64,000 bases of DNA from an uncultured Planctomycetales bacterium (lineage in GTDB: Bacteria; Planctomycetota; MHYJ01; JACPRB01). The stretch spans positions 41,546-105,545 of the forward strand of contig CAZGKV010000005.1 of the NCBI GenBank assembly GCA_964526305.1, written 5' to 3'. The notes below the pieces were generated by a model. The model saw only the letters and a list, made by a program, of their open reading frames with translations, was not told the origin of the DNA and did no database searches. Each line of letters begins with the position of its first letter. Position 1 is the first letter of the stretch. The translations under genes were made by a program, and so were the position numbers. Below, piece by piece: positions 3 to 44,587 of this stretch.

Positions 3-626
3 TTCGACCCGAATCGTTTCCTGCATCGCGCGGCGTTCGAGGCGACGCAGGACCACCTCGCGGTCCTGGTGGAGAACTTCCACATCAAGAATCCGCTGCG
101 GGCGGGAATGGAACTCCTGCCGCTCAAGAACGCGGCCAAGCTGGAAGCCGCCCTCTTCGACCGGGCGCTGGCGGCGCTCGCGGAACGGGGGACGGTCGTC
201 GTCGAGAATCAGAAGGTGCGGCGCTCGACCTTCGCGATCCGCCTCTCCAAGGAGGATGCGGAGGCCGCCGCCGAGATCGAACGGCTTCTTCGCGAAACGC
301 GCTTCCAGACCCCCCGCCAGGACGAGCTTTATTCCCGCTTCAAGTACACGAAGGACCGCATCGATCGAGTGCTGGGATTGCTCGTGGACAACGGCTCGGT
401 CGCCTCGCTCAAGGACGGCGTCCTTCTCCACCGCGACACGGTGAAAGAGGCCATCGAGGTGGTGACGAAGGCGATCCGGGAACGGGGCGCGATCGAAGCC
501 GCCCAGTTCCGGGATCTGGTGGGTACGACGCGGAAATACGTCATCCCGCTCCTGGAGCATCTCGACGATCTCGGGGTGACTCAGCGGGTGGAAAACAAGC
601 GGGTTCTGCGCAAGAGTCCGAAGTGA
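3..626 (+). CDS. selB: Selenocysteine-specific elongation factor, C-terminal winged-helix (SECIS-binding) part; 5' truncated by window edge
   Basis: Frame is open from position 3. C-terminus FRDLVGTTRKYVIPLLEHLDDLGVTQRVENKRVL matches the SelB WH4 signature (SRKYAIPLLEYLD..G.T.R). Confidence 0.9.
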   Translation, partial: FDPNRFLHRAAFEATQDHLAVLVENFHIKNPLRAGMELLPLKNAAKLEAALFDRALAALAERGTVVVENQKVRRSTFAIRLSKEDAEAAAEIERLLRETRFQTPRQDELYSRFKYTKDRIDRVLGLLVDNGSVASLKDGVLLHRDTVKEAIEVVTKAIRERGAIEAAQFRDLVGTTRKYVIPLLEHLDDLGVTQRVENKRVLRKSPK

Positions 627-5934: not shown

Positions 5935-6471
5935 CTACTTTTTCGCTTCGAACTCGAGACAGACATGAGTCACCTTGCCGCTGGGCGAGGTGGTTTCCAT
6001 TCGTACGATCCAACCGGGAACGTCGCGGGAATACCAAGCCTGGGCGCGTCCGATTTCCTTTCCCTGGCAGTCGTAGACGACATCGGTGACGATGACGCAT
6101 CGAAGTTTTCGTCCCGCTACCTCTAGCTGCTCCGTCCCACGCTTCGGATTCGATCGGTGGAGATTCTTGCAGGTCGCGCAAGGCTCGGGGCGGGAGCTCG
6201 GCGGCTTGAGCTCGATCGGCGTCGGTTCGGTTTCAAACTCGCCGTCCCCGACTTTCACCTTCTGGACCGACTGGAGGAGGATGAGCTCTTCGTTCTTGGC
6301 CTGGAGGACGGTTCTCCCGGTGATGGTCGCGGAAGGGGACTCCACCCGATACCGGACCCAGGATCCTTTTTCGAATCGAACCCAGGCGTCCCAAGGGACG
6401 AAGACGATCGCGTCGTCGTCCGTTTTGGGGGAGTCTTGGAGGAAGAGGGAACAGACGAGCGTCAAGACCAT
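5935..6471 (-). CDS. Hypothetical exported protein
   Basis: Signal-like N-terminus, coherent 178-aa ORF, TATGAT 6 nt upstream of the ATG. Confidence 0.65.
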   Translation of the reverse strand: MVLTLVCSLFLQDSPKTDDDAIVFVPWDAWVRFEKGSWVRYRVESPSATITGRTVLQAKNEELILLQSVQKVKVGDGEFETEPTPIELKPPSSRPEPCATCKNLHRSNPKRGTEQLEVAGRKLRCVIVTDVVYDCQGKEIGRAQAWYSRDVPGWIVRMETTSPSGKVTHVCLEFEAKK

Positions 6472-6526
6472 AGCCAGATCATACCTCAGATGGAACTTCA
6501 GGGGGTAGCTCGCCGGCGCTCCCGGT

Positions 6527-8775: not shown

Positions 8776-8779
8776 CGTC

Positions 8780-11223: not shown

Positions 11224-11224
11224 G

Positions 11225-12187
11225 CTATCGCCCCATCTCCCTTTCCCACGCGCCGACGGATCCTTCGGCGTCGTCCACGAGCGCCTTGAACGCATCGCGG
11301 TCGCGCGCGGCGTCCTTCAGCTCCTTCTCCAGCTTCTCGTTCGTCTTGTTCAGGTTCTTGATCTTCTCGTCCAGCACCCTGATTCCGGACTGCGCGGCTT
11401 TCCACTTCTTCTCCGCAGCCTCCATATCCTTCTTGAGTTTCTCTTTTTCCTTCTTGTCCTTCGCGCGGTCGTACTTGAAAGCGGCCTGTTTGAACGCCTC
11501 CTGGAGTTTCTTCTCCGCTTCGACGGCCGAGTTGTACTTCCGGAGGATGTCGTCCGAGTACTTCGGAAAGTCCTTGAGGGCCTTGTTGCATTTCTCCCAG
11601 CGGACGAGCGCGCTTTCATGTTTGGGCTTGCGAGTCTCGAGCTCTTTCTTCCAATGGGCCAGACGCTCCTTGCGATACTCGTCGATCGCGTCCAGGGCCT
11701 TGCCGATTTCGTCGAACTTGCCGATCCAGAGCTTGGCGATCGCGATCGCGCGATTGAAGAGGACCCCGCCGGTTTCGCGGTTCTTGTCGCCGGGCATCAC
11801 GCTCCGCGCGAAATAGTTCCGGATGCACTCCACGTCGTCGCTCGAGAACTTCTTGCGCACGGCGGAGGCCAGCTCGCCGGGCTCTTTGACCCGTTTCCGG
11901 TACTCGCCGAACTCGGTGCCTTGCTTTTCGTGGAAGTCGGTGGCCTCTTTGGCCAAGTTTCCAAGGCTCTGAATGAGGCTGGTCAGGGAGGAGCCGACCT
12001 GTTCCGCAAGCGTGCAGCAGGGGTCCGCGATCGACTTGTCGACCGTGTCGTCCTTCACCGGCTGCTCGCGCTTCGCGGCCACGGCCACGGCGGCCTTCCG
12101 CGCCTCGGAGAGGTGTTTCTTCGCTTCGGCGACGGAATCGGAGAAAAGGAGGGTACCGGCCAGGCCCAGCCACGCGTTCGCCATCAT
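11225..12187 (-). CDS. Exported Lys/Glu-rich coiled-coil protein
   Basis: Signal peptide MMANAWLGLAGTLLFS and heptad-like charged C-terminal half. ATGA overlap with the upstream gene. Confidence 0.75.
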   Translation of the reverse strand: MMANAWLGLAGTLLFSDSVAEAKKHLSEARKAAVAVAAKREQPVKDDTVDKSIADPCCTLAEQVGSSLTSLIQSLGNLAKEATDFHEKQGTEFGEYRKRVKEPGELASAVRKKFSSDDVECIRNYFARSVMPGDKNRETGGVLFNRAIAIAKLWIGKFDEIGKALDAIDEYRKERLAHWKKELETRKPKHESALVRWEKCNKALKDFPKYSDDILRKYNSAVEAEKKLQEAFKQAAFKYDRAKDKKEKEKLKKDMEAAEKKWKAAQSGIRVLDEKIKNLNKTNEKLEKELKDAARDRDAFKALVDDAEGSVGAWEREMGR

Positions 12188-31753: not shown

Positions 31754-33850
31754 ATGGTCGAACCCTTTGAGCGACTCGCCCCGTTTCTCCGCGAATTCGC
31801 GTGGACATCCGGATGGACCGCGCTTCGGCCGATGCAGGCCGCCGCGATCGAGGCGGTGCTCGACTCGGAGGACGACGTCCTCATCACCGCCGCGACCGCG
31901 GGAGGAAAGACGGAGGCGGCCTTTCTCCCGATCCTCTCGATCGTCCACGAGAGACCCGCTTCGTCGGTCCAGGCGCTCTATGTCGGTCCGCTCAAGGCGC
32001 TCATCAACAACCAATTCGAACGCCTCGAGGATCTGTGTCGGAAGGCGGAGATCCCCGTCACCAAGTGGCACGGGGACGCCGCGGACGGGGCGAAGGATCG
32101 ACTGGTGGAGGACCCGCGCGGGGTCCTCCAAATCACGCCCGAATCGATCGAGAGTCTATTGGTGAACCGGACACGATATCTCGAAAGTCTCTTCTCCGGC
32201 TTGGAGTTCGTCGTCCTCGACGAGCTCCACACGTTCCTCGGATCCGATCGCGGCGGTCAACTTCGTTGCCAGCTCGAGAGACTTCGGAAGTACACCCAGC
32301 GACGCCCTCGGCGCCTCGGACTCTCCGCCACGCTCGGCGATCCGGAGCAGGCCAAGCGGTGGATGAATCGGGATCCGGCGCGCGTCCGTCACGTCGGCGC
32401 TCCGCCGGGAGTCCAGGAGGTGCGGTTCGATCTCGATCACTTCGAGGATCGAGACGCGATGGCGCGGGATCTGTTCGCGCTGACCCGAAATCGCAAGAGC
32501 CTCATTTTCTGCAACTCGCGAGGCGAGGTCGAGGAACTCACCGTGAAGCTCAACGGTCTCGGTCGAGCCGAGGGAATCGAAGACCGATACCTTCCGCATC
32601 ACGGGTCGGTCTCGAGGGCCGTGCGCGAGGATGCGGAGGCGCGGATGAAGGATCGGGAGCGTCCTTCGAGCGTGGTATGCACGAGCACCCTTGAACTCGG
32701 GATCGATGTGGGCCGGATCGACCTCGTGGGGCAGATCGACGCCACCCATACGGTCGCCGCGATGGTGCAGCGTCTGGGAAGGAGCGGTAGGCGCGCCGGG
32801 CAAGCGCAGACGATGAAGGTCTACGCGACCGAGCGGGAGTCCTGGCAGAGCATTCCGTTTTCGCTCCTGCAGGCCGTGGCGGTCGCCGAGTTGTGGCGCG
32901 AGAAATGGTGCGAGCCTGTCCGGGAGCCTCGCAAGGCCTACCACGTTCTATTCCAGCAGCTTGTGTCGCTGGCGACGGAGCGGAACGGTCTGCCGCCGGC
33001 GGAGCTCGTCGGACACTTCTTCCGGAGCGGGGACTGGCAGGGAATCGAGGCCGAAGACTACGAGCTTCTCCTCCGTCACCTCGTGAAGGAGGACCTCCTG
33101 CAGCAGATGTCCGACGGTACTCTCCTACCCGGTCTGGCGGGAGAGCGGGTCGTCCGAGCGTACGATTTCTATGCGATGTTTCAGACGCCCCCGGAGCTCG
33201 AGGTGCGGGCGGGCGACCGCACGATCGGCCGATTGGCGGCCTCGCTCAAGCCGGGAGCCTGCTTCATGCTGGCCGGGGGCGTGTGGCGCGTGGAGAGCAT
33301 GACGCGCGACGAACTTCGTGTCGTGCCCGCGTCCGAGGGGGAGCGTCCTGCGTTCCGCGGGGTCGGAGGCCCGTCGGTTCATCCGCGCGTTGCGGCCCGG
33401 GCGAGAGAAATCCTCTGCGGGACCTCGGAGGTTCCGTATCTCTCGGCCGGAGCGCAGCGGAGACTGACGGCCGCGAGGGCGACGGGGCGCGAATTGGGAA
33501 TGGACCGTCGGGTACTCTTCGAAGGCGGGATCCTCGTGCCCTGGCTCGGCTCCGACGCGATGGAGACTCTGGCGGAGCTCTTCGCCTGGGCCGGGCTCGG
33601 CGCGGATTCCTCCCGACCGCCATGGATTCTGGATCTTCGGGGAGACGTGGCGGAGGCCGCGAGGCGGATCGTCCGCGCGCCTCCGGCGGCCTCGGAATTG
33701 GCCGAACGAAGGGAACGCGAGACGCTGACTTCGAAGAAGTTCGACGAGTACCTTCCTACCGAGCTCCTGCGGAAGAGACATGCCGAGGACGAGCTCGACC
33801 TCGCGCCGGCTCTCGAGTTTCTCCGCTTGCTACTTTCGGATATCCGCTAG
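31754..33850 (+). CDS. Lhr-like DEAD/DEAH helicase (Shango SngC/BrxHI-like)
   Basis: AATAGGKTEAA, LDELH, LSAT, HHGS, TSTLELGIDVG, QRLGRSGRR. Confidence 0.9.
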   Translation: MVEPFERLAPFLREFAWTSGWTALRPMQAAAIEAVLDSEDDVLITAATAGGKTEAAFLPILSIVHERPASSVQALYVGPLKALINNQFERLEDLCRKAEIPVTKWHGDAADGAKDRLVEDPRGVLQITPESIESLLVNRTRYLESLFSGLEFVVLDELHTFLGSDRGGQLRCQLERLRKYTQRRPRRLGLSATLGDPEQAKRWMNRDPARVRHVGAPPGVQEVRFDLDHFEDRDAMARDLFALTRNRKSLIFCNSRGEVEELTVKLNGLGRAEGIEDRYLPHHGSVSRAVREDAEARMKDRERPSSVVCTSTLELGIDVGRIDLVGQIDATHTVAAMVQRLGRSGRRAGQAQTMKVYATERESWQSIPFSLLQAVAVAELWREKWCEPVREPRKAYHVLFQQLVSLATERNGLPPAELVGHFFRSGDWQGIEAEDYELLLRHLVKEDLLQQMSDGTLLPGLAGERVVRAYDFYAMFQTPPELEVRAGDRTIGRLAASLKPGACFMLAGGVWRVESMTRDELRVVPASEGERPAFRGVGGPSVHPRVAARAREILCGTSEVPYLSAGAQRRLTAARATGRELGMDRRVLFEGGILVPWLGSDAMETLAELFAWAGLGADSSRPPWILDLRGDVAEAARRIVRAPPAASELAERRERETLTSKKFDEYLPTELLRKRHAEDELDLAPALEFLRLLLSDIR

Positions 33851-35170
33851 CCACCTCTCGACTTGGGCTCGATGGGGCCAGCCGGGAGGGGCGACCTCCA
33901 AGGCCCGCTCGAAGTCGGCCGCTGCGCCCTGCTTGTCGCCGAGCTTCAGGCGCACTCCGGCCCGGTTGGCCAAGGTGTCCGGAGAGGAAGGGTCGAGATC
34001 GAGGGCGGCCGTGAAGTCGCGGATGGCTCCCTCCAGATCCCCGAGTTTAGACTTGGCGATGCCGCGGTAGAGGAGCGCTCCGAAATTTCTCGGCTGGATC
34101 GCGAGAGCTCGATCGAAGTCTGCGATCGCTTCCTGCACTCGGGCCAGTTGGAGAAGGGCCGAACCGCGTTCGACGAACACCTCGGCATCTCTCGGATGGA
34201 GTGCGATGGCTTGCGTAAAGTCTCTGATCGCCTCCTCGGTCCTTCCCAGGGCCTGGTAGACTCGAGCCCGAAGACGTAACGCCCGCGGCAGTTTCGGTTG
34301 AAGGCGGATAGCTTCTTCGGCGTCTCGAAGGGCGTGGTTCCACGCTTCCTTCGCGTCCAGTCTCCGGCTCTCTTGAAGTCGGGCCACCGCGATCCACGCC
34401 TTGCCGAGGCCCAGCCAGGCCTCGACTGAGCCTGGCTCTTTGGCGATGGCCGCGTCGAAGTCCGTCGTTGCCTTGGCCAGCGCGCTGGTCGGATCCGCGT
34501 CGAATCGGGCGGCGGCCAATCGGACATGCCCGCGCTCGACGAGCGAGGCGGCCGAGCCGTCCAGCTCCACGGCGCGACTCGCATCTTCGATCGCCCGCTC
34601 CAAGGCCTGCTTGGATTCCGCTCCGGAATCGCGCGCCAAGCGAGTCCAGTACCGGGCTCGCAGTCGGAAGGCGTTCGCCGATCTTGGGTTCAGGCGGATC
34701 GCGCCATCCAGATCGGGTCGGGCATCCTGACCCAGTTCGAATTTCAGTTCGGCGCGGAGTTCCCTGTGGGCCGACTCGTTGGGGGCGAGTTCGATGGCGC
34801 GGTCGGCGTCCGCCAGGGCTTTCTCCCCTTCCCCCAGCCCGGCGTACGCGCGGGCGCGCCCCGTGTAGGCTTGGGCTCGGTGGGGGTTCTCCGAGAGGCG
34901 TTTCGTGAAGTGCTCGAGGGCTCCGCGGAAATCGCCCGCCTGGAGCAACTCGAAGCCGCGGGCCAAGTCGTCGTTGGTTGCGAGGGATTCTCCGCACTGG
35001 GCGCAGAAACGGTCCTTCGGTTCCGCCGCAGTTCGGCACTTGGGACAGGAAGGCGGGGTGGACTTCTGCCCGCACTGGGTGCAGAACTTGGACCCCTCGC
35101 GCAGAGGGGAGCCGCAGCGGGTGCAGTCGTCCGCGAGGACCAGGAGGAGCGACACGAGGAGAGCGATCAC
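33830..35170 (-). CDS. Exported double zinc-ribbon plus TPR protein
   Basis: Signal peptide, CTRC..CTQC..CPKC..CAQC, then TPR repeats. Confidence 0.8.
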   Translation of the reverse strand: MIALLVSLLLVLADDCTRCGSPLREGSKFCTQCGQKSTPPSCPKCRTAAEPKDRFCAQCGESLATNDDLARGFELLQAGDFRGALEHFTKRLSENPHRAQAYTGRARAYAGLGEGEKALADADRAIELAPNESAHRELRAELKFELGQDARPDLDGAIRLNPRSANAFRLRARYWTRLARDSGAESKQALERAIEDASRAVELDGSAASLVERGHVRLAAARFDADPTSALAKATTDFDAAIAKEPGSVEAWLGLGKAWIAVARLQESRRLDAKEAWNHALRDAEEAIRLQPKLPRALRLRARVYQALGRTEEAIRDFTQAIALHPRDAEVFVERGSALLQLARVQEAIADFDRALAIQPRNFGALLYRGIAKSKLGDLEGAIRDFTAALDLDPSSPDTLANRAGVRLKLGDKQGAAADFERALEVAPPGWPHRAQVERWLADIRK

Positions 35171-36231
35171 GGTTCACCTCTCTTTCGTCGGGCTTCATCG
35201 CGGAGGGGGGCCAGCCGGGCTCGCAGTGGAGGGCGGAGTTCGATAGCCCGTGTCCAGTCGGCGATGGCCGGATCGTACCGCCGGAGGGCGAAGTAGGCGG
35301 CGCCGCGCGCCTCGAGGGCGTCGCCGTCGTTCGGGCGGAGCTCCAGGGCGCGACTCAGATCGTCGATCGCGAGGAGGGGCTCGGCGCCGGCGAGCCGCGC
35401 TCGTCCCCGTCCCACGAGGGCATCGGCGTGGTCGCGTCGGCGGTGAAGGACCTCGGAGTACTCGGCGACCGCGTCGGAGAAGCGGCCGAGCGAAATCAGG
35501 AGACGACCCCGTGCGAGGCGCGCCTCGGCGGATTCCGGCGCCAAACGCACGGCCTCGTTCGCGTCCTCTAAGGCTTCGGCGAAACGGCGCTGGGCGGCTC
35601 GGGCGCGAGCGCGAACCAGATGGGCGGGGGCGGTCTTGCGGATCGCGAGGGCGCGCCGAGCGGCCTCGGTCGCTTCCGCGAATTCACCTCGGAGAATACG
35701 GAGATCCGCAAGGCGAAGCCACAGCCCGACGTCCGCCGGGTCCAAGTCGAGCGCCTCCTGAAGGAAGAGGAGAGCGGCGTTCCGTTGAGGCACACCGTTC
35801 TCGCCTCGAAGGTCGGCCAGCCGAATGAGGGCGTCGGCGCGGGAGGCGCGCGCTCTCGTGCTCTTCGGATCCAGCCGAAGCGCCTGGGCGAAGTCCTCGA
35901 TGGCGGCGCGGAGATCGACTTCCTCCTGGGCGGCGAGAAGGTGGATCCGTCCCCGGTCGAGCCAGAAGGAGGCGCGGAAGCCATCGAGTTCGAGGGCGCG
36001 ATCCGCATCCAGGCGCGCTGCGGCGAGATCGCCCCGGGCGGCCCGGGCGCGCGCCCGCTTGGCCCACGCCTCGGCGTTCCGGGGGTCCCGCTCAATCGCC
36101 GCGCCGGCGTCCCGCTCCGCCTCCTCCGCGTCCCGGATGGGGGTACCGCACGAGGCGCAATACCGCGCCCCTTCTCGTGCCGATTCGCCGCACAAGGCGC
36201 ACTCCGACACGAGGAAGAATAGGAGAATCAC
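35167..36231 (-). CDS. Zinc-ribbon plus TPR protein
   Basis: Hydrophobic start, CALC..CASC, TPR repeats. GTGA overlap with the next gene. Confidence 0.8.
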   Translation of the reverse strand: MILLFFLVSECALCGESAREGARYCASCGTPIRDAEEAERDAGAAIERDPRNAEAWAKRARARAARGDLAAARLDADRALELDGFRASFWLDRGRIHLLAAQEEVDLRAAIEDFAQALRLDPKSTRARASRADALIRLADLRGENGVPQRNAALLFLQEALDLDPADVGLWLRLADLRILRGEFAEATEAARRALAIRKTAPAHLVRARARAAQRRFAEALEDANEAVRLAPESAEARLARGRLLISLGRFSDAVAEYSEVLHRRRDHADALVGRGRARLAGAEPLLAIDDLSRALELRPNDGDALEARGAAYFALRRYDPAIADWTRAIELRPPLRARLAPLRDEARRKRGEP

Positions 36232-36275: not shown

Positions 36276-36349
36276 CCGATGATATAGAAATAGCCAGGCT
36301 TCTTTTATATCATGATATAAAAGAAGCCTGGCTATTTCTATATCATCGG
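36276..36349. repeat. Perfect 74-bp spacerless palindrome, AT-rich
   Basis: 36276-36312 is the exact reverse complement of 36313-36349. Arms are 13/37 GC. Confidence 0.95.
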
Positions 36350-39300
36350 ACGGAAAGGCGGCTGGGACGAGAGGAGCCGCGCTGCTCCGGCGTGTAGTAC
36401 TCGTAGACGCTGGAAACGGGCACGGTCGCACGAAGGGGGAAGCGGGGACGGAGCGTGTATTCGAATTCGAACTGTCGGCCCTTGGCCACGCGGCCGAAGT
36501 AGAGCGCGATCTGGCGGCCGGCCAGGGTGTACTTGTCGATGGTCTTCTCGCGGACCATCTCCTCGAACGGCTCACGGTCGACGTCGAATCCCGGCGGGAT
36601 GCCGAGATCCACGATCACCATGAAGGTCCCCTCGCCATGGTAGGCCATCCGGGCTCGTGCCTTCAGCGGCTCGTTCCGTGCCATTTCGGTACGATCGTAT
36701 CGAACCTCAATTTCCAGGGGAGGTTGCGTCTCCGGCGGCACCCGGTCCCAGGGCAGATAGTACCGCCCCGTCACCTGTACGCTCGCCCGCAAGTCTCCGT
36801 CCGCGTCGATCTCGACTTGGTTTACGCCTGGGCCCGTAAGCGCCGTTACATCCACGGCTTGGGCGACATCGAAGTTCGTTCCGTCGATCGGCCGGAATCC
36901 CTCGCCGACCTCACGTCCGTTGACACGCAGGCGAAGAGCGACCCCCTTCGCGGGCGGTTTCGACTTGCCCGCCTCCAGGAGAGCCTTGAGCGCGAGAATG
37001 GTGGCCTGTGTCGACCCCCAGGCGCCGGTCGCGTCCTTGTCCCGGGCGATTGCGGACAAGCCTCCGTCCGCCACGGGAGAATCGCGGAGCGCCATCGTTG
37101 CCAAGGCCGTCGTCTCGACCCCGCCGGACTTTCCCCAGGAATAGAAAAGTCCTTGCCCGGGCATCGTCCACCGGGCCGCACCCTGCTCCCGCGTAGCCAT
37201 TCCCTCGAGCCGAGCCAGGATTCGCGGGTCGGGGTGGGCGTTGGCGATGAGAGCGAGCGCATATGGATCTTCCAGCTTTTCCCATCGCGATTGCAGGTAC
37301 GCGACCGCTCGGGCGTTCGGACGACCCGCCGCGCGGAGCGCCCAGGCCACGTACGCGGTTGTCGCGACCGGGTCCGACCCACTCCATCGTTTTTCGCCCG
37401 ACCAGGATCCGTCGGAATTCTGTCGCGACAGGAGAAGTCGTACCGCCCGATCGATGACGGCCGAATCCACGGGGTGGACCTTCGCCATATCGACGAACTC
37501 GAGAACACCGTACGCCGTGAGAACGGTGTTCGCCGGCGCCTTTCCGTACCAGTCGAACCCGCCCCCCGACACCTCGAAAGTAAGAAGCCGCTGGTATCCC
37601 TGGCTCAGCGCCTGCTCCAACTTCATCTGCCACTCGGGCGTCAACTGACGCGTCTCCTTGAGATAACCCATCACGAGTACGTTCGGATAGGTCACGCTCG
37701 TGGTTTGTTCGAATCAGCCGTAGGGCATCCGCACGAGCGCTTCGAGCCCGGTGACGATCTCCGAGAAGCTCGACGGATAGAGGCGCACCCAGGTGCGGTG
37801 CGCGCCTTCGATCGACTCGCGGGGAATCTCGACCTGGAGCCGCGAAGAGGTGCGAAGTCGATCTCCCGCGGCGAAGGGGAAGGCCTTGCCGTCGGGCATG
37901 ACCTCGAGGGTGCGCGCGACGCGATCCGCGAAGCTTGCCGCGGTGGCCAGGACCTCGAGCCGATGCGTCCCGAACTTCGCCGCGCGGATCCGATAGAGGA
38001 TCGAAGTCACGCGCTGCGGCTCGACTTCGACGGACTTCTCGGCCGGATCCAGAAGATCGATCCCCGCCTCCGCGGTAAAGCGAAGCGTCACGGTGTCGCG
38101 CTTGTCCGTAAAGTTGTACACCGCGACGGGAACCCAAAGCTCGTCCCCTTGCGTCAGCGAAACGGGCAGATCGAGATCTACGAAGAAGGGCTGGAAGACT
38201 TTGATGCCGTCCACCCCGCTCCCCAGCCGACCGTCGCGGGAAACCGCGCTCATCGTCATTCGCCAGGTGGTGATCGAGTCGGCGCCTCGGAACCGCACGC
38301 GAGCCCGGCCGTGTTCGTCCGTGAGGATTTCCGAGTTCCAATAGAGCGTTTCCGGGAACCACTCGCGCAGGCGCGGGGGATCGGACTTGGCGGGATCCGA
38401 CTTGGATCCCGTCGCGCCGCCTCCCCCCGTCGTTTCCGATCGCAAGGCCATGCCTTTGGGGTGTTGCGAGAACAAGGCGAAGAATCCTCCGCACAACAGA
38501 ATCCCGCACACGACTGCCTCGGCGACGATGCAACCGACCCGGCCACGGACGGCCTCGCGCACTGCGTACACGAACGTCCCGATCACGAGGACGAGGAAGA
38601 ACGCGATGCCGGCGATCGCTCCGGCGATTCGCGCCCGCTCGTTGTGTCGATTGATCCACCGGTTGATGGTGTCTTGCTTGTCCCCATGTCGGCAGCGCGC
38701 GACCGCACGGTTCTCCTCGGATTCCTGCGCCGCCGCGGCCCGGACTCGATCCGTCATCGGCGCTTTGAGCTGGTACCGCGGCTTCAGGAGGTCTTCGACG
38801 ATTCGGAAATAATCCCGCTCCAGCCCGGGCCGCGCCTCCGCAAGGGCGTAGACCGCCTCGTCCACGACTCCCAAGGTGATCGCCGAAACGACCGGCCGAC
38901 CCGTGGAGTCCAGGACTTCGAACTCGATGGAGATTTCCTCTCCGGGCCGGTACTCGCTCTTCGATAGCTTCGGCCGGATCTGAAGCTCCGTCGGAAGATC
39001 GACGATGACCACTCTCGAGTCGCGGACGATGTCGCCGTCCTCACGGATACGGTAGGCCGAAAGTCGCACGGTGCCGGTGAGTTCCGTCGGAAGATCGAGA
39101 GGAAGCACGCCCCGGCCGGCCCTGACCTCAAGCGTGCGGGTCAGGATCGTCTGGTCGTTTTTCACCAGGTCGACGAAAAGCGTGAGATCGCGCGCGGCAT
39201 ACGCCGTGACGGAGAGCGTCTCGCCGGCCCGGGCGGTGGGCTCAACCTGGAGAGCGAAATCCTTCGCCCCGAGTCGGCTGGAAGGGTGATACGTGAGAGA

Positions 39301-40698
39301 GGCACGCCGTCCGGCTCCGTCTTTCGCGTCGATCCGAACCGGATCGAGCCGTCGTCCGATCGCGACGACTCCGACTCCCGCGGAATCGGTCGCGACCGAC
39401 CCCCCCGGAGTGGTCAGCTCGCATCGGGCGGGCCGTCCGTCCGGATACGTCGTGATCACGAAGAGCGAATTGTCGATTCCGGCGACCACTTCTCCGAACA
39501 CCGGCACGACCTCGATTACGATCGGGTCCCGAGAGACGGGGATGCGGATCTTCTTCCGCTCGGTCTGCCCCGCTCCGTCCACCACCGTCGCTTCGAGCGG
39601 GACGTCCCCCTCGTGGGGCGTCAGACGCATCTCGAAAGTCCACCGCCCGTTCGAGTCGAGCCGTCCCGACAGCCGCTCCGGGCCGGAAAGCTCGACGCGG
39701 CCGTCGGCCACCGGCCGGGGAAAAAAGTACCGCGCCTCGACCGTCCCCCGAATCGTGTCGCCGGGCGCGTAGAAGGAAGAATCCGTCGTTACCGTCACGC
39801 CGAATTTCGGAAGGACATATCGACTCACCTCGACGGTGCGTTCGCTCTCGACGGCGGCGACGCGCGCCCGGATGCGCCATCGTCCGAGGATTACCTCGTC
39901 GGCCAGGCGGAAATCGACCGCGAAGATCCCGAAGTCGGAGGTCGTCCCTTCCTTCTTGTAGACCTTCGTTCCGTTCGGGTCCTCGATTTCGATGACGGCC
40001 GACGTCCGCGCGTACGGCTTCATCCGGAAATTGTCCATCGTGAGGGAGCGGATGTGGATCTCTTGCGTCGGCTGATACACGGGCTTGTCGGTGGTGAGGA
40101 GGATGCGGGCGGGTCGTTCGATGCGGATCGATCCGGTGAGCGTATCCGATGCCAGGGCGGAAGAGACTTCCACCGTGAGCGTCGCGGCGCCTTCCAGGTC
40201 GCTCGGAAGATCGAAAGCGAGCTCCGCGGAGCCGTTCGACGCGGTCTGGGCCGCCGGCGATTCCAGAACGCGCTCGCCGATTCGGACGCGCCCGCGAACG
40301 CTCGCGCCGGCGACGGGCCTCCCGCCGCGGTGATCCGAGACGAGGACGCGCGCCACGGTGCGCGTGCCCGAATGCCAGAGCGTCCCCGCGACGACGTGGA
40401 CCTCCTGCGGATCCGCCTCTTGGACATTGACCCAGACGAGGCCCGCCGTCATGGCGACGAGGACGAGCGCGGCCGCCACCGCCGGAATTCGCCACCACCG
40501 GCGGCGCCGAACGAGCACCGGCTTGGCGCCGGGGGGGGCGAATCGTCCCGCCGCCCGTTCCAGCTCCGCGTCGGCTCCTCGGAACTGTTCGAGACGGCTC
40601 CGGCACTTCGCGCACTCGGAGAGATGGCGCTCCATCTCCTCGCGGTCGGCGAGCTCGCCGTCCAGGTATAGGCTGAGCTTGAGGTCGTCGCAATCCAT
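36343..40698 (-). CDS. zf-HC2 anti-sigma/alpha-2-macroglobulin fusion with in-frame UGA at the thioester Cys (putative selenoprotein, 1451 aa)
   Basis: N-terminal HLSECAKC and TM helix, MG-domain motifs (TDKPVYQP, YVLPKF), FPETLYW, FQPFFVDLDLP. RMPYG-TGA(37716-37714)-FEQTTSVTYPN continues in frame into TED and receptor-domain sequence. Confidence 0.8.
37672..37702 (-). promoter_or_regulatory. Candidate bacterial SECIS hairpin for the macroglobulin UGA
   Basis: Starts 11 nt after the UGA: cacgag/ctcgtg (6 bp) plus cgt/acg (3 bp), with an 11-nt loop beginning with G 20 nt after the UGA. Confidence 0.55.
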
Positions 40699-40700
40699 CT

Positions 40701-41162
40701 TCACACCTTTCCCGAGATCATCGCGCGAACTCGGTGGAGTTTTTCGCCGACGGCGGTCACCGTCATTCCGAGAACTTCCGCAATCTGGGCGTACGGCATC
40801 CCGTCGACATATCGAAGAAGGAGAATCCGGCGGTAATCCTCCCGAAGACCGTCGACGAGCCGCATCACATGGGCGATGCGGTCGTCCGGTTCCTCGGGGC
40901 GGGGCGCGGCCAGGTCCATCGCGTGCTCCTCGATCGACACGGTAGCGCGGCGGGACCGGAGGACGTCGATCGCCGCGTTCCTCGTCAGCGTGTACAGCCA
41001 GGTTTTCCGATGGAGGACGCCGTCGACGGATTTCCACGCGCGGAGGAAAACCTCCTGCGTTAGGTCGTCGGCGGCGCTTTCGTCGCGGAGGTACGCCCGC
41101 GCGAGAGCGCGAACCATGCGTTCATGCTCGCGCACGAAGGCGTCGAAGTCCGCGCCGGTCAT
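40701..41162 (-). CDS. ECF sigma-70 factor, cognate of the macroglobulin-fused anti-sigma
   Basis: ADDLTQEVFLRAW, KTWLYTLTRNAAID, YAQIAEVLGMTVTAVGEKLHR. Stop lies 2 nt before the anti-sigma ATG. Confidence 0.88.
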   Translation of the reverse strand: MTGADFDAFVREHERMVRALARAYLRDESAADDLTQEVFLRAWKSVDGVLHRKTWLYTLTRNAAIDVLRSRRATVSIEEHAMDLAAPRPEEPDDRIAHVMRLVDGLREDYRRILLLRYVDGMPYAQIAEVLGMTVTAVGEKLHRVRAMISGKV

Positions 41163-41232
41163 CGGATTCTCCCGGCTCCGAAAGTGGGACGAAACGGGGC
41201 GGGGGGATCTTAGAACAAAAGTCCCGCGAGAA

Positions 41233-43872
41233 TCAATCCGTCGGAAGGTCCGCCGCCAGACGTACTCCGATGTGCATGCTGGCGGTCCGGGGCGGGAAGG
41301 TGGCGCGGGAGGCCGATCTGCAGTAGCGGGAAGAGCTGCTCCACCCTCCGCCTTTCACCGCCCATACGGAGAAATCCTCCGAGCGGGTGTTGAGCCAATT
41401 GGCGATCACTCCCGCCATGTCCCGCACTCCGAACGGAGACTCGTCCGCGGGAAAGAGCCCGATGCGTTCCTGGACGCTCTTGCGCTCCAGGTATTCCATC
41501 GGGCGGGATCGTTCGGAGGCGGCGAACGCGAAATCGAACCGGTCCCCCCAGGGAAAACACCGCCCGTCCGCGCCACGGGCCGCCTTTTCCCATTCCTCCT
41601 CCGTCGGGAGTCGAAAGCGCCACCGGTTGTTCCGCTTTTGGGAATACCAGCGCGCATACGCAATCGCATCCTCGAGCGAGATCCCGACGAGCGGTTCATC
41701 GGGATTCCAGTAGAGAAGCGTGAACTTCTCCCCCTCCGTATTCCAAAACGTGCCTCCGTTGTCGAGTCGCGGCTGGCGCTTTCGCGCCTGCGCCGCCGTG
41801 TGCGCGGAGCGATCGTTGAGAAAGTCCAGATACTCGCCGGCCGTTACGGAGAATCGAGCGAGGAAGAAGGAGCCGACAGTCCGGGGGCGGCGCTCGCCCG
41901 GACCTTCGAGTCCTTCTGCCTCCGGATCGCTCCCCGCGATCGTCGCTCCTTCCGGGACGTAGACGAATCCCGCCGGGATGGCGTCCCCCGGGAGGAGCGC
42001 GATCTCGGCGCGGACCGGTCGATCGGGTTCCAGGAGGACGGGGAAACGAGCCTGGGCGAACCCCGCCTTCTCGAAGAGGACCAGATACGAACCCGGCGGG
42101 AGCGACAAGGGGAAGGAGACCTCGTTTTGTTCTCCGGTGTGGAGCCGGTAGGCGCTCCCGTCACGCGCGCTCTTCTTGGCCTCCTCGGGCGAGTCGAAGG
42201 GGAGCGCATCGACTCGAGGGAGGTCGACCTCGCGGGTTCTTCCCTTGGAGTCGCAGGGCAGCGGATGGAGTCGGACGTTTCTCTCTTCGTACCGGAAAAG
42301 CCATGCGCGGGCCCCGGCGGGACGCGTGAGGAGAGTGAGGGACACTCGAACCTCGAACCGAGCCCGATGTTCGGGACCGCCATAGTGCAAAACCTTCTTC
42401 TGCCACCACTCGGCTTCGGCGCGATTCCGGCCCGCGACCGCGCGCTCGTAGCGGGAGAGATAGAGATCCGCCAGAAGGGTGCGGGCCTCGAGGATTCCCG
42501 GATCGAAGGCGAGCGCCGTGAGGGCGGAGAGTTCGGACTCCTGCTCTCGGGCCGCGGCTTCGCGCCGAAGGACGTCGATCCGCGCCTCCAGCTTCCACAC
42601 CTGTTCCTTTTCCGAAGCGGGGGTGGAAGAGGTCAGCGAAGGTTTCCGGATGGACGAAAGCTCGGCGAGGAGTCGGTCTCGGGAGACCAAGGCTTCTCGC
42701 GCCCGGATCATCTCCTGGGCGATTCGGGCGCCCCGTTCGGCCGCCGTCCGATCGGGATCCAATCGTCGGGTCTCGGTGTAGCACTCCAGCGCGCGACTCC
42801 AGCGCCCGTCTCGGGCGGCACGGTCTCCCTCGGCGAGCCAACGGCGGGCGGCCGCCTCACGCCCGGCGGAACGGTAGGAGGAAACACCGCCCGTGCCTGC
42901 GGCGAAAACCGTCGCGGCCAGGAGAAGCGTGGTCCAGACCTTGTGCCGGCGCACGAAGCGCCCGAGTCGGCGAAGCACCCCGATGGGTCGCGCGAGAATG
43001 GAGGCGCCGTCGAGGAACCGGCGCAGGTCGTCGGCGAACGCCTTGGCCGTCGAATAACGGTTCGTGGGCCTCTTCTCCAGCGCCTTGAGGACGACGTTCT
43101 GGAGATCTCTCGGAACCGCGGGATTGAAGCGGCGGAGGGGCGCGACTTCTCGCGCCCGAACCCGGTCGAGAATGACGACGGGATTCGGTCCTTCGAAGGG
43201 GGCCTGCCCGGTGAGGAGTTGGTAGAGCGTCGCGCCGAGGGAGTAGACGTCGCTCCGGGCGTCGCAGTGTTCCCCGCTCGCCTGCTCCGGAGACATGTAG
43301 GCGGGAGTCCCAATGATCACGCCCTGGCTCGTGATCGTGGTTCCCCTCTCCGCCACGCGGGCGAGACCGAAGTCCATGACCCACACGTGGCCGTTGCGGT
43401 CGAGCATCAAGTTGAGCGGAGTCAGGTCGCGGTGGACGATTCCCTTATCGTGCGCGTAGTGAACGGCGTCCGCGGCGTCCCGGACCACCTCGACGGCCCT
43501 CCGGAGCGGCAATCGCAGCTCGTGCAGCGATTTCCCGTCGACGAACTCCATCGCGATGAAGGGCTTCCCCTCGATCTCGCCGACTTCGTGGATGGGGACG
43601 AGGTGCGGATGGCTGAGCTGCGCCGCGAGTTGTGCCTCGCGCATGAAACGCTTGGCGTCCTCCGGATGGGGAGAGTTCAGGAATTTCAGCGCGACGATGC
43701 GGTTGAGCTTGAGATCGCGCGCCCGATAGACGATCCCCATCCCGCCCCGCCCGAGGAGTTCGAGGTCTCCGTACCGCGCGGGCGAGGGAACGGAGGCGGA
43801 TCGCTCGCGCTCGTGCTCGAGGAGGCCCTCGACCACTCGGTCGAGCGAGGGTTCAAGCTTCGAATAGCTCAT
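41233..43872 (-). CDS. Ser/Thr kinase - TM - TPR-like - FGE/SUMF1 (C-type lectin fold) domain protein
   Basis: GRGGMGIVY, HRDLTPLN, DFG. C-terminal RLPTEEEWEKAARGADGRCFPWG, SPFGVRDMAG. Confidence 0.9.
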   Translation of the reverse strand: MSYSKLEPSLDRVVEGLLEHERERSASVPSPARYGDLELLGRGGMGIVYRARDLKLNRIVALKFLNSPHPEDAKRFMREAQLAAQLSHPHLVPIHEVGEIEGKPFIAMEFVDGKSLHELRLPLRRAVEVVRDAADAVHYAHDKGIVHRDLTPLNLMLDRNGHVWVMDFGLARVAERGTTITSQGVIIGTPAYMSPEQASGEHCDARSDVYSLGATLYQLLTGQAPFEGPNPVVILDRVRAREVAPLRRFNPAVPRDLQNVVLKALEKRPTNRYSTAKAFADDLRRFLDGASILARPIGVLRRLGRFVRRHKVWTTLLLAATVFAAGTGGVSSYRSAGREAAARRWLAEGDRAARDGRWSRALECYTETRRLDPDRTAAERGARIAQEMIRAREALVSRDRLLAELSSIRKPSLTSSTPASEKEQVWKLEARIDVLRREAAAREQESELSALTALAFDPGILEARTLLADLYLSRYERAVAGRNRAEAEWWQKKVLHYGGPEHRARFEVRVSLTLLTRPAGARAWLFRYEERNVRLHPLPCDSKGRTREVDLPRVDALPFDSPEEAKKSARDGSAYRLHTGEQNEVSFPLSLPPGSYLVLFEKAGFAQARFPVLLEPDRPVRAEIALLPGDAIPAGFVYVPEGATIAGSDPEAEGLEGPGERRPRTVGSFFLARFSVTAGEYLDFLNDRSAHTAAQARKRQPRLDNGGTFWNTEGEKFTLLYWNPDEPLVGISLEDAIAYARWYSQKRNNRWRFRLPTEEEWEKAARGADGRCFPWGDRFDFAFAASERSRPMEYLERKSVQERIGLFPADESPFGVRDMAGVIANWLNTRSEDFSVWAVKGGGWSSSSRYCRSASRATFPPRTASMHIGVRLAADLPTD

Positions 43873-44587
43873 TCCACTCTTCCCGGAGAGTGGCTTCGTC
43901 GGTCACCGTATCCGTGAGCTCGGCACGGATCTCCGCCCGAATCATCTCCCGGACTTCGAAGAGGTAGTTTCGAACGTCGCTCTCCTTCACTCCGATCTTC
44001 TCGGCGACTTCGGCATAGGTCGGACGAAGCCCGGAAGAGGCCAGCTCGTACTCCTCGTACGCGCGGTAGAGGACTTCTCGTCCCCGCGATAGCAGCCGCT
44101 CGCGCACGCGTCCGAGGGCGAGCCTCACGACCTCGGCGGTCCAAGTGCGATCGAAGATCTTCTGGGGATCCGTCGTTCCGTCGGGAATCTGGTCTTGAAG
44201 CACGAGGTTGGGATCGTCCAGCGGGAGGATCTTCTTCCCGCCTCCCCGCTTGAGCCGTTGCAGGGCTTCGTGCTCGTGCCCCAGGAATCCGCCCAGGAGG
44301 ATACGCAGGTATCTTCGGAAACTGCCCCGCTCCGGGGAGTACTTGGTCAAGGCCTCTCCCTCGAAAAGCCAGAGGAAGAAGGCCTGCGTCAGATCCTTGG
44401 TATCCTCGTTGGTCTTGGCCCAGCTCAAGCGGATGAAACGGTATACCGGCTTCCAATACCGCAGGCAGAGCTTCTCGAACGCGACGCGGTTTTGGTTCAG
44501 CGGCTGATGGATCTTCGAAATCAGGCTCCACGTCGTCACCGGGAAGGTGGAGTCGCGGCCGCCGATCGAAGTGTCGTCGAATTCCAT
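43853..44587 (-). CDS. ECF sigma factor, kinase-associated planctomycete type
   Basis: FPVTTWSLI N-terminal motif, YWKPVYRFI, DLTQAFF, KRGGG, YAEVAEKIG. 20-nt overlap with the kinase start. Confidence 0.85.
   Translation of the reverse strand: MEFDDTSIGGRDSTFPVTTWSLISKIHQPLNQNRVAFEKLCLRYWKPVYRFIRLSWAKTNEDTKDLTQAFFLWLFEGEALTKYSPERGSFRRYLRILLGGFLGHEHEALQRLKRGGGKKILPLDDPNLVLQDQIPDGTTDPQKIFDRTWTAEVVRLALGRVRERLLSRGREVLYRAYEEYELASSGLRPTYAEVAEKIGVKESDVRNYLFEVREMIRAEIRAELTDTVTDEATLREEWNELFEA

What the first reader, a model, noticed from the sequence alone, without database searches (positions are those of the whole stretch)
36343..41162. ECF sigma factor paired with an anti-sigma domain fused directly to a full alpha-2-macroglobulin
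Seen in sequence: the ECF gene ends 2 nt before an ORF starting with a zf-HC2-type motif (YLDGEL...HLSECAKC), then a TM helix, then macroglobulin domains. Established: zinc anti-sigma domains hold ECFs inactive until an extracytoplasmic signal arrives, and A2Ms change shape after protease cleavage of the bait region. Inference: a one-protein protease alarm in which capture of an attacking protease both traps it and releases the sigma factor.
Basis: partly seen in the sequence, partly recalled or inferred. Interest (0 to 1): 0.65.

Follow-up and report, generated by a model that had tools for sequence, protein, structure and literature searches.

The report
Selenocysteine macroglobulin fused to anti-sigma factor
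A hot-spring bacterium encodes a sigma factor next to a membrane protein that joins an anti-sigma domain to a protease-trapping macroglobulin, and the trap's reactive cysteine is encoded by a UGA codon that is very probably read as selenocysteine, which I did not find described in any paper I searched.

Summary
An ECF sigma gene (41162-40701, minus strand) ends 2 nt before an ORF that opens with a zinc anti-sigma domain, followed by a TM helix and macroglobulin domains.

An in-frame TGA (37716-37714) sits exactly where the thioester cysteine of the CxEQ motif belongs: ...MPYG-TGA-FEQ.... Reading continues in the same frame for 456 codons through the thioester and receptor-binding domains.

The TGA is very probably selenocysteine:
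- 24 of 24 related stop-containing loci have TGA there, while 63 other loci have Cys codons.
- F-E-Q after the TGA is invariant, with synonymous variation.
- A downstream hairpin shows compensatory changes in TGA forms only.
- A complete selB gene lies on the same contig.

The ECF and anti-sigma adjacency is conserved in 10 of 11 loci of the window's clade. The bait-region position holds two TM helices flanked by disordered linkers.

No paper I searched mentions selenocysteine in a macroglobulin. Public annotations split these genes in two.

The parts
41188..41213 (-). Possible ECF-type promoter: CTAAGA, 16 nt, CGTC, upstream of the sigma gene.
   Evidence: Similar motifs sit at the same place upstream of the ECF gene in L082, L083, L086 and L088. 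There is one match in the window against 0.53 expected by chance, so the motif is weak on its own.
40701..41162 (-). ECF sigma factor gene, 153 aa, with regions 2 and 4 only.
   Evidence: Pfam Sigma70_r2 4.8e-17 and Sigma70_r4_2 4.7e-16. NCBIfam TIGR02937 sigma70-ECF scores 92.6 bits against a cut-off of 42.9.
37717..40698 (-). First 994 codons of the anti-sigma::A2M gene, from ATG 40698 up to the UGA.
   Evidence: The AlphaFold2 model has mean pLDDT 80.4. Foldseek matches C4b, CD109, C3, A2ML1 and A2M at E 1e-45 to 1e-34.
40543..40698 (-). Zinc anti-sigma (ZAS) domain, aa 1-52. Candidate ligands are C3, H25, C29 and C32.
   Evidence: Pfam zf-HC2 scores 25.0 bits, above its cut-off. H25, C29 and C32 are invariant in 19 homologues. 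The profile hits RslA, DdvA, RsiW and ChrR. Three helices are predicted.
40423..40491 (-). TM helix 1, aa 70-92.
   Evidence: Hydropathy scan and predicted helix 70-91.
38860..40407 (-). Macroglobulin domains MG1 to MG6, aa 98-613.
   Evidence: Pfam MG2, MG3 and A2M_BRD. Beta-sandwich domains are modelled at pLDDT about 85-95.
38359..38841 (-). Insertion at the bait-region position, aa 620-780. It consists of a disordered linker, TM2 (aa 695-713, 38560-38616), a short loop, TM3 (aa 724-742, 38473-38529) and a second disordered linker.
   Evidence: Hydropathy scan; insertions of 2, 4 or 6 helices at this position are common across the family. pLDDT is 32-50 for aa 635-663 and 733-773, and helices are predicted at 671-717 and 724-734.
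37714..37716 (-). In-frame UGA, codon 995, at the thioester Cys position. Proposed to be selenocysteine (U-F-E-Q).
   Evidence: TGA is found in 24 of 24 stop-containing loci, against TGC/TGT in 63 loci. Two sequencing runs confirm the base calls.
37660..37699 (-). SECIS-like hairpin of 16 base pairs with a bulged U and a 6-nt loop. It starts 14 nt after the UGA.
   Evidence: MFE structure. In the 8 sequences of alignment A2 (window, L082, L083, L001, L085-L088; all TGA loci of the window's clade), 89.8% of cells pair, 5 pairs carry compensatory changes, and 0 of 500 shuffles reach the observed score. With partners slid by 1-3 columns, pairing is 34-53%. The same structure on 15 Cys-form Planctomycete genes pairs 49.6% of cells, which is shuffle level.
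36343..37713 (-). Codons 996-1451 in the same frame: thioester domain (TED) and receptor-binding domain, plus the stop codon.
   Evidence: TED_complement 7.7e-34 spans aa 982-1241, across the UGA. A2M_recep 1.1e-10. Human A2M is the best solved relative at 1e-36.
36290..36335 (.). Perfect 20-bp inverted repeat followed by a T-run, terminator-like, 8 nt after the gene's stop.
   Evidence: The scan listed 11 terminator-like sites between 36000 and 41400, none of them at the internal UGA.
3..626 (+). 3' end of selB, the selenocysteine-specific elongation factor, cut by the window edge.
   Evidence: SelB-wing_3 4.5e-19 and SelB-wing_2 2.7e-9. The full 642-aa gene lies on L091, which is identical to window 1-12679. 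It scores 328 bits on TIGR00475 selB against a cut-off of 242.

Best explanation
The locus is a two-gene operon. It runs from a possible ECF-type promoter, through the ECF sigma gene and the anti-sigma::A2M gene, to a strong terminator hairpin.

The second gene encodes one polypeptide of 1451 residues, in this order:
- a cytoplasmic zinc anti-sigma domain
- TM1
- six macroglobulin domains outside the membrane
- a TM hairpin flanked by two disordered linkers, at the bait-region position
- MG7/CUB, the thioester domain and the receptor-binding domain, outside again.

The residue that forms the internal ester with Gln998 is encoded by UGA (codon 995). It is read as selenocysteine with the help of a hairpin starting 14 nt downstream and of SelB, whose gene is on the same contig.

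Shown here: the anatomy, the conservation, the recoding signals and the presence of selB.

Inferred:
(a) Sec995 and Gln998 form a selenoester that acts as the covalent capture group.
(b) Proteolytic attack on the exposed linkers triggers the usual A2M rearrangement.
(c) This change is passed to the anti-sigma domain, either through packing of TM1 with the TM hairpin or through follow-up proteolysis, and frees the sigma factor, which then raises expression of its own operon.

My confidence is about 0.9 for selenocysteine decoding, about 0.85 for a genuine sigma/anti-sigma pair, and about 0.35 for steps (b) and (c).
For: Recoding:
- TGA sits at the Cys position in 24 of 24 loci that carry a stop there, spread over at least 3 clades. 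TGC or TGT occupies it in 63 other loci.
- The true terminal stops of the same genes vary (TAG 10, TGA 7, TAA 2).
- F, E and Q directly after the TGA are invariant but use both synonymous codons: TTC 16 / TTT 8, GAG 18 / GAA 6, CAG 15 / CAA 9.
- Read-through ORFs of 1550-1880 aa contain no other stop.
- The hairpin shows 5 compensatory pairs in TGA forms and sits at shuffle level in Cys forms.
- A different 6-7 bp hairpin starts 10 nt after the UGA in all 11 Chloroflexota and Bacillota TGA loci: 93.5% paired, against 38.6% in Cys forms.
- A full selB lies on the same contig.

Anti-sigma pair. ECF adjacency.

A2M fold.

One transcription unit: the only strong terminator follows the second piece.

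Bait-like linkers.
Against: - No selA, selD or tRNA-Sec was seen in the DNA available.
- No Rfam SECIS family matches.
- The window hairpin alone is not exceptional against shuffles (z = -1.5).
- The covariation rests on 8 related coding sequences, and the structure was derived from one of them.
- There is no protein or selenium evidence.
- A selenoester has never been shown in a natural protein, to my knowledge.
- For signalling, the canonical bait is absent, and a cut at the linkers leaves a large ectodomain on TM1.
- Many Sec-form and TM-insertion relatives have no anti-sigma domain at all. Sensing by a sigma factor is therefore an add-on in one branch and not the family's core function.
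Confidence: 0.7

Rival explanations
1. Split gene. The UGA is a true stop. The cell makes a 994-residue anti-sigma::MG protein without a thioester domain, plus a separate TED/receptor-domain protein started at the GTG or ATG a few codons downstream. The hairpin would serve translational coupling.
For: Gene callers annotate the locus exactly this way in every source. GTG at codon 7 and ATG at codon 15 after the stop could act as starts. From general knowledge, bacterial Sec insertion is inefficient, so a truncated product is probably made as well.
Against: The six codons between the stop and the first possible restart (F-E-Q-T/S-T/S/I-S; F, E, Q and the last S invariant) are conserved at the protein level with synonymous changes in 24 loci. 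That requires them to be translated. The frame is never shifted, and the stop is never TAA or TAG although the real terminal stops vary. The stop replaces exactly the one catalytic residue. Cys-form homologues are single chains.
Confidence: 0.07
2. Pseudogene or sequencing error. A Cys codon (TGY) mutated to TGA by a single change, and the gene is dead.
For: A single substitution turns TGC or TGT into TGA, so 'always TGA' is what a nonsense mutation would also give.
Against: The same stop is present in 24 loci that have diverged to 35-60% identity, and both halves keep intact Pfam domains and open frames. In addition, 66 of 144 cluster representatives end at exactly this point. Two sequencing runs agree with the window.
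Confidence: 0.01
3. Selenoprotein, but not a protease alarm. The A2M part is a membrane-tethered covalent trap or shield. The anti-sigma domain responds to something else, such as cytoplasmic thiol or zinc stress as in RsrA-type ZAS domains, or general envelope stress. Alternatively it is simply destroyed when the whole protein is turned over, so the sigma factor reports consumption of the trap and not capture itself.
For: Many relatives, both Sec and Cys forms, carry only an N-terminal TM anchor with no anti-sigma domain and no ECF gene. The complete HxxxCxxC plus upstream Cys motif is the redox-sensitive ZAS signature. The geometry after linker cleavage does not fit classical site-1/site-2 proteolysis (plus general knowledge).
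Against: The fusion with A2M has been kept across at least two different anti-sigma N-terminal types, each with its own ECF partner. That argues for a functional link between the ectodomain and sigma control.
Confidence: 0.25

Closest known systems
Eukaryote-type thioester proteins: human alpha-2-macroglobulin, A2ML1, CD109, insect TEP1, complement C3/C4
   Same: The domain order is the same: MG domains, A2M domain, TED with the x-E-Q motif, and receptor-binding domain. These are the best sequence relatives among solved structures (A2M 1e-36, CD109 4e-35, TEP1 1e-28). They are also the best fold matches (E 1e-45 to 1e-34, TM 0.5-0.6).
   Different: The reactive Cys codon is UGA. The bait region is replaced by a TM hairpin with disordered linkers. 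The protein is anchored in the membrane by three helices and carries a cytoplasmic anti-sigma domain.
Bacterial A2Ms: E. coli ECAM/YfhM and Salmonella A2M, which are thioester-bearing (CLEQ, from my own knowledge) inner-membrane lipoproteins
   Same: These are bacterial, envelope-located, monomeric A2M-type proteins thought to trap attacking proteases.
   Different: They are only distant relatives (1e-8 to 1e-10). They are anchored by a lipid and have no TM helices. They have Cys, no sigma-factor link, and a different gene partner (pbpC, from my own knowledge).
ZAS-family membrane anti-sigma factors with their ECF partners: RsiW/SigW, RslA/SigL, ChrR/RpoE, DdvA/DdvS
   Same: They share the N-terminal helical domain with HxxxCxxC, a following TM helix, and a gene directly after the ECF sigma gene. 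Profile matches range from 5.8e-9 to 6e-4.
   Different: The extracytoplasmic part here is a complete 1350-residue A2M. No paper I searched describes that combination.
Bacterial selenoproteins with Cys homologues and a SECIS hairpin inside the coding region, such as formate dehydrogenase FdhF
   Same: An in-frame UGA aligns with Cys in homologues. A hairpin sits within about 10-40 nt downstream inside the ORF. SelB is present.
   Different: Known selenoproteins use Sec as a redox or metal-ligand residue (general knowledge). Here Sec occupies a site whose Cys is consumed in an acyl (thio)ester, which implies a selenoester. No NCBIfam model covers the protein.

Membership tests
A2M / thioester-containing protein superfamily | A series of macroglobulin (MG) beta-sandwich domains plus the A2M domain. 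| tested here: met
   Pfam MG2 4.3e-20, MG3, A2M_BRD 3.7e-10 and A2M 6.4e-20. Foldseek matches C4b, CD109 and A2M at 1e-45 to 1e-34.
A2M / thioester-containing protein superfamily | Thioester domain with a Cys-x-Glu-Gln motif. | tested here: inconclusive
   TED_complement scores 7.7e-34 and F-E-Q is present, but the Cys codon is UGA. The feature is met only if UGA is read as Sec, and the ester would then be a selenoester. The chemistry was not tested.
A2M / thioester-containing protein superfamily | An exposed, protease-sensitive bait region between the two halves of MG6. | tested here: inconclusive
   The position holds two TM helices flanked by low-confidence, probably disordered linkers at aa 635-663 and 733-773. 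Protease sensitivity is unknown.
A2M / thioester-containing protein superfamily | C-terminal receptor-binding (MG8) domain. | tested here: met
   A2M_recep 1.1e-10 at aa 1359-1441.
ZAS (zinc-binding) anti-sigma factors | HxxxCxxC motif, with an upstream Cys or His, in an N-terminal helical domain. | tested here: met
   C3, H25, C29 and C32 are present. H25, C29 and C32 are invariant in 19 homologues. zf-HC2 scores above its gathering score. Three helices are predicted. The profile hits RslA, DdvA, RsiW and ChrR.
ZAS (zinc-binding) anti-sigma factors | Gene adjacent to and co-oriented with an ECF sigma gene. | tested here: met
   The gap is 2 nt in the window. The arrangement is conserved in L001, L041, L054, L082, L083 and L085-L088.
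ZAS (zinc-binding) anti-sigma factors | Binds and inhibits its sigma factor, and binds zinc. | not testable with these tools
   This needs two-hybrid, pull-down or metal analysis.
ECF (group 4) sigma factors | Only regions sigma-2 and sigma-4, about 150-200 aa. | tested here: met
   The protein is 153 aa with Sigma70_r2 and Sigma70_r4_2. TIGR02937 scores above its cut-off.
Bacterial selenoproteins | In-frame UGA aligned with Cys in homologues, with conservation on both sides. | tested here: met
Bacterial selenoproteins | SECIS stem-loop just downstream of the UGA. | tested here: met
   The hairpin lies 14-54 nt after the UGA and has compensatory changes specific to TGA forms. A second hairpin type occurs in Chloroflexota forms. 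There is no match to curated Rfam SECIS models, and SelB binding was not tested.
Bacterial selenoproteins | Sec machinery (selA, selB, selC, selD) in the same genome. | tested here: inconclusive
   selB is present on the same contig, at 328 bits on TIGR00475 against a cut-off of 242. selA, selD and tRNA-Sec were not found in the roughly 66 kb available.
Bacterial selenoproteins | Selenium is incorporated into the protein. | not testable with these tools
   This needs 75Se labelling or mass spectrometry.

The most novel reading that the evidence does not exclude
The A2M-type trap uses a selenocysteine-glutamine selenoester as its covalent warhead. That would be the first natural protein selenoester and a non-redox, acyl-transfer use of selenocysteine. 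It has been kept for a long time in several phyla (Planctomycetota, Chloroflexota, Bacillota). In this Planctomycete branch the trap is wired through a membrane-embedded bait and a zinc anti-sigma domain to an ECF sigma factor, so a single protein both captures an attacking protease and reports the attack.
Probability: 0.45. Interest if true: 0.95.

Novelty: new variant of a known kind. Interest (0 to 1): 0.85.

Why it matters
1. This would add a large and widespread selenoprotein family. Of 144 newly retrieved cluster representatives (50% identity) among the best 150 hits of a profile built from TGA forms, 66 end exactly at this codon. All known selenoproteins I am aware of use Sec for redox or metal chemistry. 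Here it replaces a Cys that is consumed in an internal thioester.

2. A selenoester is a much better acyl donor than a thioester (general chemistry). The finding therefore makes a concrete question testable: why would evolution tune the reactivity of the A2M/complement warhead?

3. Public annotation splits these genes into two 'hypothetical proteins', so the family is invisible in current databases.

4. An anti-sigma factor whose sensor is a whole protease trap, with a bait position buried in the membrane, is an undescribed input module for ECF signalling.

Tried and rejected
- Rfam at gathering level on the whole window, and at E up to 10 around the UGA, gave no SECIS or other relevant family.
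- ARAGORN on the window, on the 88 loci held at that point and on L091-L093 found no tRNA-Sec.
- E. coli SelA, SelB and SelD were searched against all ORFs of all loci. Only the weak SelB hit that led to the selB fragment at the window edge appeared. No selA or selD was found.
- A scan of the window for other in-frame TGA junctions with coding-like GC3 on both sides gave no second convincing selenoprotein gene.
- NCBIfam has no model for the A2M protein.
- The single-sequence fold of the hairpin is not significant against shuffles (z = -1.5). The argument therefore rests on comparison between loci.
- 'Always TGA' was rejected as evidence against a simple nonsense mutation, because TGY to TGA is a single step. 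It was used only against a freely drifting stop codon.
- The promoter-like motif CTAAGA-N16-CGTC is shared by some relatives but is not significant within the window.
- The AlphaFold output gives no contacts, so packing of TM1 against the TM hairpin could not be examined.
- Seven literature searches for selenocysteine or anti-sigma combined with macroglobulin or thioester terms found nothing relevant. The one apparent hit, the CAGE complex preprint, concerns a different protein.
- The 244-aa gene at 43853-44587 has no Pfam hit.

Full report
**1. What is at the coordinates**

All features are on the minus strand.
- A 153-aa ECF sigma gene runs 41162-40701, with Sigma70_r2 at 4.8e-17 and Sigma70_r4_2 at 4.7e-16. 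TIGR02937 scores 92.6 bits against a cut-off of 42.9.
- It ends with TGA at 40703-40701. Two bases later, ATG at 40698 opens a protein that starts MDCDDLKLSLYLDGEL...HLSECAKC.
- Pfam finds zf-HC2 at aa 7-33 (25.0 bits, cut-off 22.2). It then finds MG2, MG3, A2M_BRD, A2M, TED_complement at aa 982-1241 (7.7e-34) and A2M_recep.
- A hydrophobic helix follows the zinc motif at aa 70-92.

**2.

The reading frame is interrupted.
- Codon 995 is TGA (37716-37714). The local sequence reads ...LVRMPYG-TGA-FEQTTSVTYPNVL....
- In every full-length homologue the same place reads P-x-G-C-F-E-Q, the thioester motif. The stop therefore replaces exactly the thioester cysteine.
- The frame stays open for 456 more codons, covering the TED and the receptor-binding domain, up to the stop at 36343.
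- Gene callers split the gene into 994 aa and 442 aa.
- The TGA is not an assembly error. Contigs from two hot-spring metagenome runs agree with window 37500-37900 without any difference.

**3. Is the TGA a stop, a lesion or a recoded codon?**

*Homologues ending at the same residue.* A search of 5.8 billion proteins returned 120 homologues. About 27 of them (31-60% identical, with varied N-termini) end at exactly ...R[ML]P[YFH]G.

*Codon counts.*
- I fetched DNA for 80 species-representative genomes using a profile of the 230 residues before the stop.
- At the Cys position, 63 loci have TGC or TGT, 17 have TGA, and none has TAA or TAG.
- Adding six metagenomic relatives and the window gives 24 TGA loci.
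- All 24 continue in frame, and read-through ORFs are 1550-1880 aa with no other stop.

*Translation through the stop.*
- The three codons after the TGA encode invariant F-E-Q but use both synonymous codons: TTC 16 / TTT 8, GAG 18 / GAA 6, CAG 15 / CAA 9.
- These codons lie upstream of any possible restart codon, so they must be translated through the stop.

*Drift of the stop codon.*
- 'Always TGA' alone does not exclude an old nonsense mutation, because TGY to TGA is one step.
- However, the real terminal stops of the same 19 complete genes are TAG 10, TGA 7 and TAA 2. A plain stop would have drifted.

*Phylogeny and spread.*
- A rough neighbour-joining tree places TGA forms in at least three deep clades, each next to Cys forms.
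- One clade is Chloroflexota, one is the window's Planctomycete clade, and the third is L012/L073.
- In a scan of 1.84 billion cluster representatives, 66 of the 144 new sequences among the best 150 end at ...P-x-G and 78 have C-x-E-Q. The profile was built from TGA forms, so this fraction is biased upward.

**4. SECIS-like structure**

*The window's clade.*
- A 16-bp hairpin with a bulged U and a 6-nt loop starts 14 nt after the UGA (37699-37660).
- Alone it is unremarkable (z = -1.5).
- Across the 8 sequences of alignment A2 (window, L082, L083, L001, L085-L088; all TGA loci of that clade), 89.8% of cells pair and 5 pairs carry compensatory changes. No shuffle out of 500 reaches the observed covariation score. 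With partners slid by 1-3 columns, pairing falls to 34-53%.
- One example is C-G changing to U-A through a synonymous Thr change paired with a Gly-to-Ser change. Another is G-C changing to C-G through synonymous Pro and Leu changes.
- The same structure on 15 Cys-form genes from Planctomycetes pairs only 49.6% of cells, no better than shuffles.

*Other lineages.*
- Three other Planctomycete TGA loci (L041, L054, L074) form a shorter stem in the same region, again with a synonymous G-C to C-G swap.
- All 11 Chloroflexota and Bacillota TGA loci have a different hairpin, (G)UACGUC-loop-GACGUA(C), starting 10 nt after the UGA. It has 6-7 of 7 pairs, against at most 5 in all 56 Cys loci scored. Pairing is 93.5% against 38.6% in formal counts.

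*Caveats.* The samples are small, the sequences are coding and related, and the structure was derived from one of them. No curated Rfam SECIS model matches.

**5. Selenocysteine machinery**

- A local search with E. coli SelA, SelB and SelD against all ORFs in hand gave a weak SelB hit at the very start of the window.
- That ORF (window 3-626, plus strand) carries SelB-wing_3 (4.5e-19) and SelB-wing_2 (2.7e-9), both above Pfam cut-offs.
- Two public contigs are identical to window 1-12679 with 0 mismatches and extend upstream.
- They hold the complete 642-aa gene, which scores 328 bits on the NCBIfam selB equivalog against a cut-off of 242.
- The Sec-specific elongation factor is therefore encoded on the same DNA molecule, 37 kb from the UGA.
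- selA, selD and tRNA-Sec were not found in the available DNA.
- Some Planctomycetes are known to have complete Sec machinery (PMC4807772). That paper's selenoprotein lists contain no macroglobulin.
- TGA is an ordinary stop elsewhere in the window, for example at the end of the ECF gene, so a global code change is excluded.

Together these results meet the usual criteria for a new selenoprotein: a Cys/Sec pair, conservation on both sides of the UGA, a downstream hairpin and the machinery. I put the probability at about 0.9.

**6. The sigma / anti-sigma part**

- The N-terminal 52 residues have C3, H25, C29 and C32. H25, C29 and C32 are invariant in 19 homologous N-termini.
- A profile of these N-termini matches solved anti-sigma domains: RslA (3HUG) at 5.8e-9, DdvA at 8.8e-7, RsiW at 1.7e-6 and ChrR at 6e-4.
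- AlphaFold2 predicts three helices, a disordered linker at aa 53-68, and the TM helix at aa 70-91.
- An ECF gene lies directly upstream, overlapping or within a few bases in most cases. This holds in L082, L083, L085, L086, L087 and L088 and in L001, L041 and L054. That is 10 of 11 loci in the clade; L074 lacks both the anti-sigma domain and the ECF gene.
- Cys-form Planctomycete A2Ms with a different N-terminal type ('DDYLH...C..C') also have their own ECF gene upstream (L014, L026, L032, L052). The pairing of A2M with sigma control therefore occurs in at least two anti-sigma/ECF lineages.
- Most Chloroflexota Sec forms have only a TM anchor and no ECF gene. Selenocysteine and the anti-sigma fusion are independent features.

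**7. The bait position**

- Between A2M_BRD (ending near aa 619) and the A2M domain (FPETLYW at aa 781), the window protein has two strongly hydrophobic helices at aa 695-713 and 724-742.
- Insertions at this position are widespread in the family. There are two helices in the anti-sigma forms, about six in the Chloroflexota forms, four in L001 and none in many others.
- The commonest numbers are two and about six. An even number would keep both halves of the A2M on the same, outer side of the membrane. That is my reading; the simple hydropathy scan also returns odd counts for a number of relatives.
- In the model, aa 635-663 and 733-773 have pLDDT of 32-50. That is consistent with flexible, exposed linkers that could act as bait. 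Protease sensitivity was not tested.
- The rest of the model is confident (mean pLDDT 80.4). It matches C4b, CD109, C3, A2ML1 and A2M at E 1e-45 to 1e-34.
- By sequence the C-terminal half is closest to human A2M (1e-36), CD109 and TEP1. It is far from E. coli ECAM and Salmonella A2M (1e-8 to 1e-10).

**8. Transcription unit**

- The only strong terminator-like element is a perfect 20-bp inverted repeat with a T-run at 36290-36335, 8 nt after the final stop.
- The scan listed no terminator-like site at the internal UGA.
- A CTAAGA-N16-CGTC motif lies upstream of the ECF gene (41213-41188) and recurs in several relatives, but it is not significant on its own.

**9. How it most likely works**

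*Shown:* one operon; one recoded polypeptide of 1451 residues with an N-in topology; a ZAS domain inside; an A2M outside, interrupted by a TM hairpin; and U-F-E-Q in the TED.

*Inferred, chemistry:*
- Sec995 attacks Gln998 to form a buried selenoester, by analogy with the Cys-Gln thioester of A2M and C3.
- On general chemical grounds a selenoester is a stronger acyl donor, which would speed covalent capture.

*Inferred, signalling:*
- A protease cutting the exposed linkers triggers the A2M rearrangement.
- The signal reaches the anti-sigma domain through the membrane helices or through further proteolysis.
- The freed ECF factor then induces its own operon.

The simple version, in which bait cleavage acts as site-1 cleavage, is doubtful. 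It would leave about 500 residues on TM1. I rate the signalling steps at about 0.35. The main rival, at about 0.25, is a trap whose anti-sigma domain responds to another cue or to turnover.

**10. Novelty**

- Seven full-text searches of about 8.3 million papers and preprints found nothing relevant. Five combined selenocysteine or selenoprotein terms with macroglobulin or thioester terms. One paired anti-sigma and ECF with macroglobulin. One paired bacterial A2M with transmembrane and bait-region terms.
- NCBIfam has no model for the protein, and every source annotates two genes.
- I therefore rate this as a new variant of known kinds (an A2M/TEP protein, an ECF anti-sigma factor and a selenoprotein), with high interest.
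- The absence of literature is limited to the library I could search.

Noticed in passing
window 3-626 (+); L091 614-2542: The window begins inside selB, the selenocysteine-specific elongation factor. The complete 642-aa gene lies on public contigs that are identical to the window.
   Followed up: yes
window 623-1192 (+), 1228-1737 (+), 1741-2679 (+): Directly after selB come two tandem ECF sigma genes and then a 312-aa protein whose N-terminus has an HxxxCxxC motif (HQTTCASC). This looks like another sigma/anti-sigma set. The 312-aa protein has no Pfam hit on record.
   Followed up: partly
window 41233-43872 (-), 43853-44587 (-), 44782-47361 (-): Two Ser/Thr kinase::FGE-sulfatase-domain fusion genes lie just upstream of the ECF gene. 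The first is overlapped by a 244-aa gene with no Pfam hit. In relative L086 a similarly placed 238-aa gene has a weak Sigma70_r2 hit. Kinase genes also lie near the A2M operon in L086, L087 and L088.
   Followed up: partly
window 36290-36335: A perfect 20-bp inverted repeat with an AT-rich centre and flanking T-runs on both strands. It looks like a bidirectional terminator between the A2M gene and the downstream TPR genes.
   Followed up: partly
relatives P0004-P0115 and L001-L080; window 38359-38841: Across this A2M family the bait-region position often holds TM helices: two, four or about six. This occurs with or without selenocysteine and with or without an anti-sigma domain. I found no description of membrane-embedded A2Ms in the papers searched.
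   Followed up: partly
window 37701-37736 (runs X1, X2): In both hot-spring runs a second short contig matches only the 36 nt around the thioester site, with 3 differences, and diverges on both sides. This points to another A2M homologue in the same community. Whether it keeps the TGA was not checked.
   Followed up: no
P0097, P0098, P0101 (about 2200 aa): Very large relatives that also end exactly before the thioester Cys. They have a signal-peptide-like N-terminus and no TM insertion, so the putative Sec form exists in secreted giants as well.
   Followed up: no
window 33830-35170 (-), 35167-36231 (-): Two overlapping genes for zinc-ribbon plus TPR-repeat proteins lie downstream of the A2M gene. 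TPR genes also lie downstream in L083, L085 and L088.
   Followed up: no
L014, L026, L032, L052, L060 and many P-series proteins: Cys-form Planctomycete A2Ms carry a different anti-sigma-like N-terminus (H-V-x-D-x-V-D-D-Y-L-H ... C-x-x-C) that Pfam zf-HC2 mostly misses. In L014, L026, L032 and L052 their own ECF gene lies upstream; none was detected in L060. This is a second lineage of the same fusion.
   Followed up: partly
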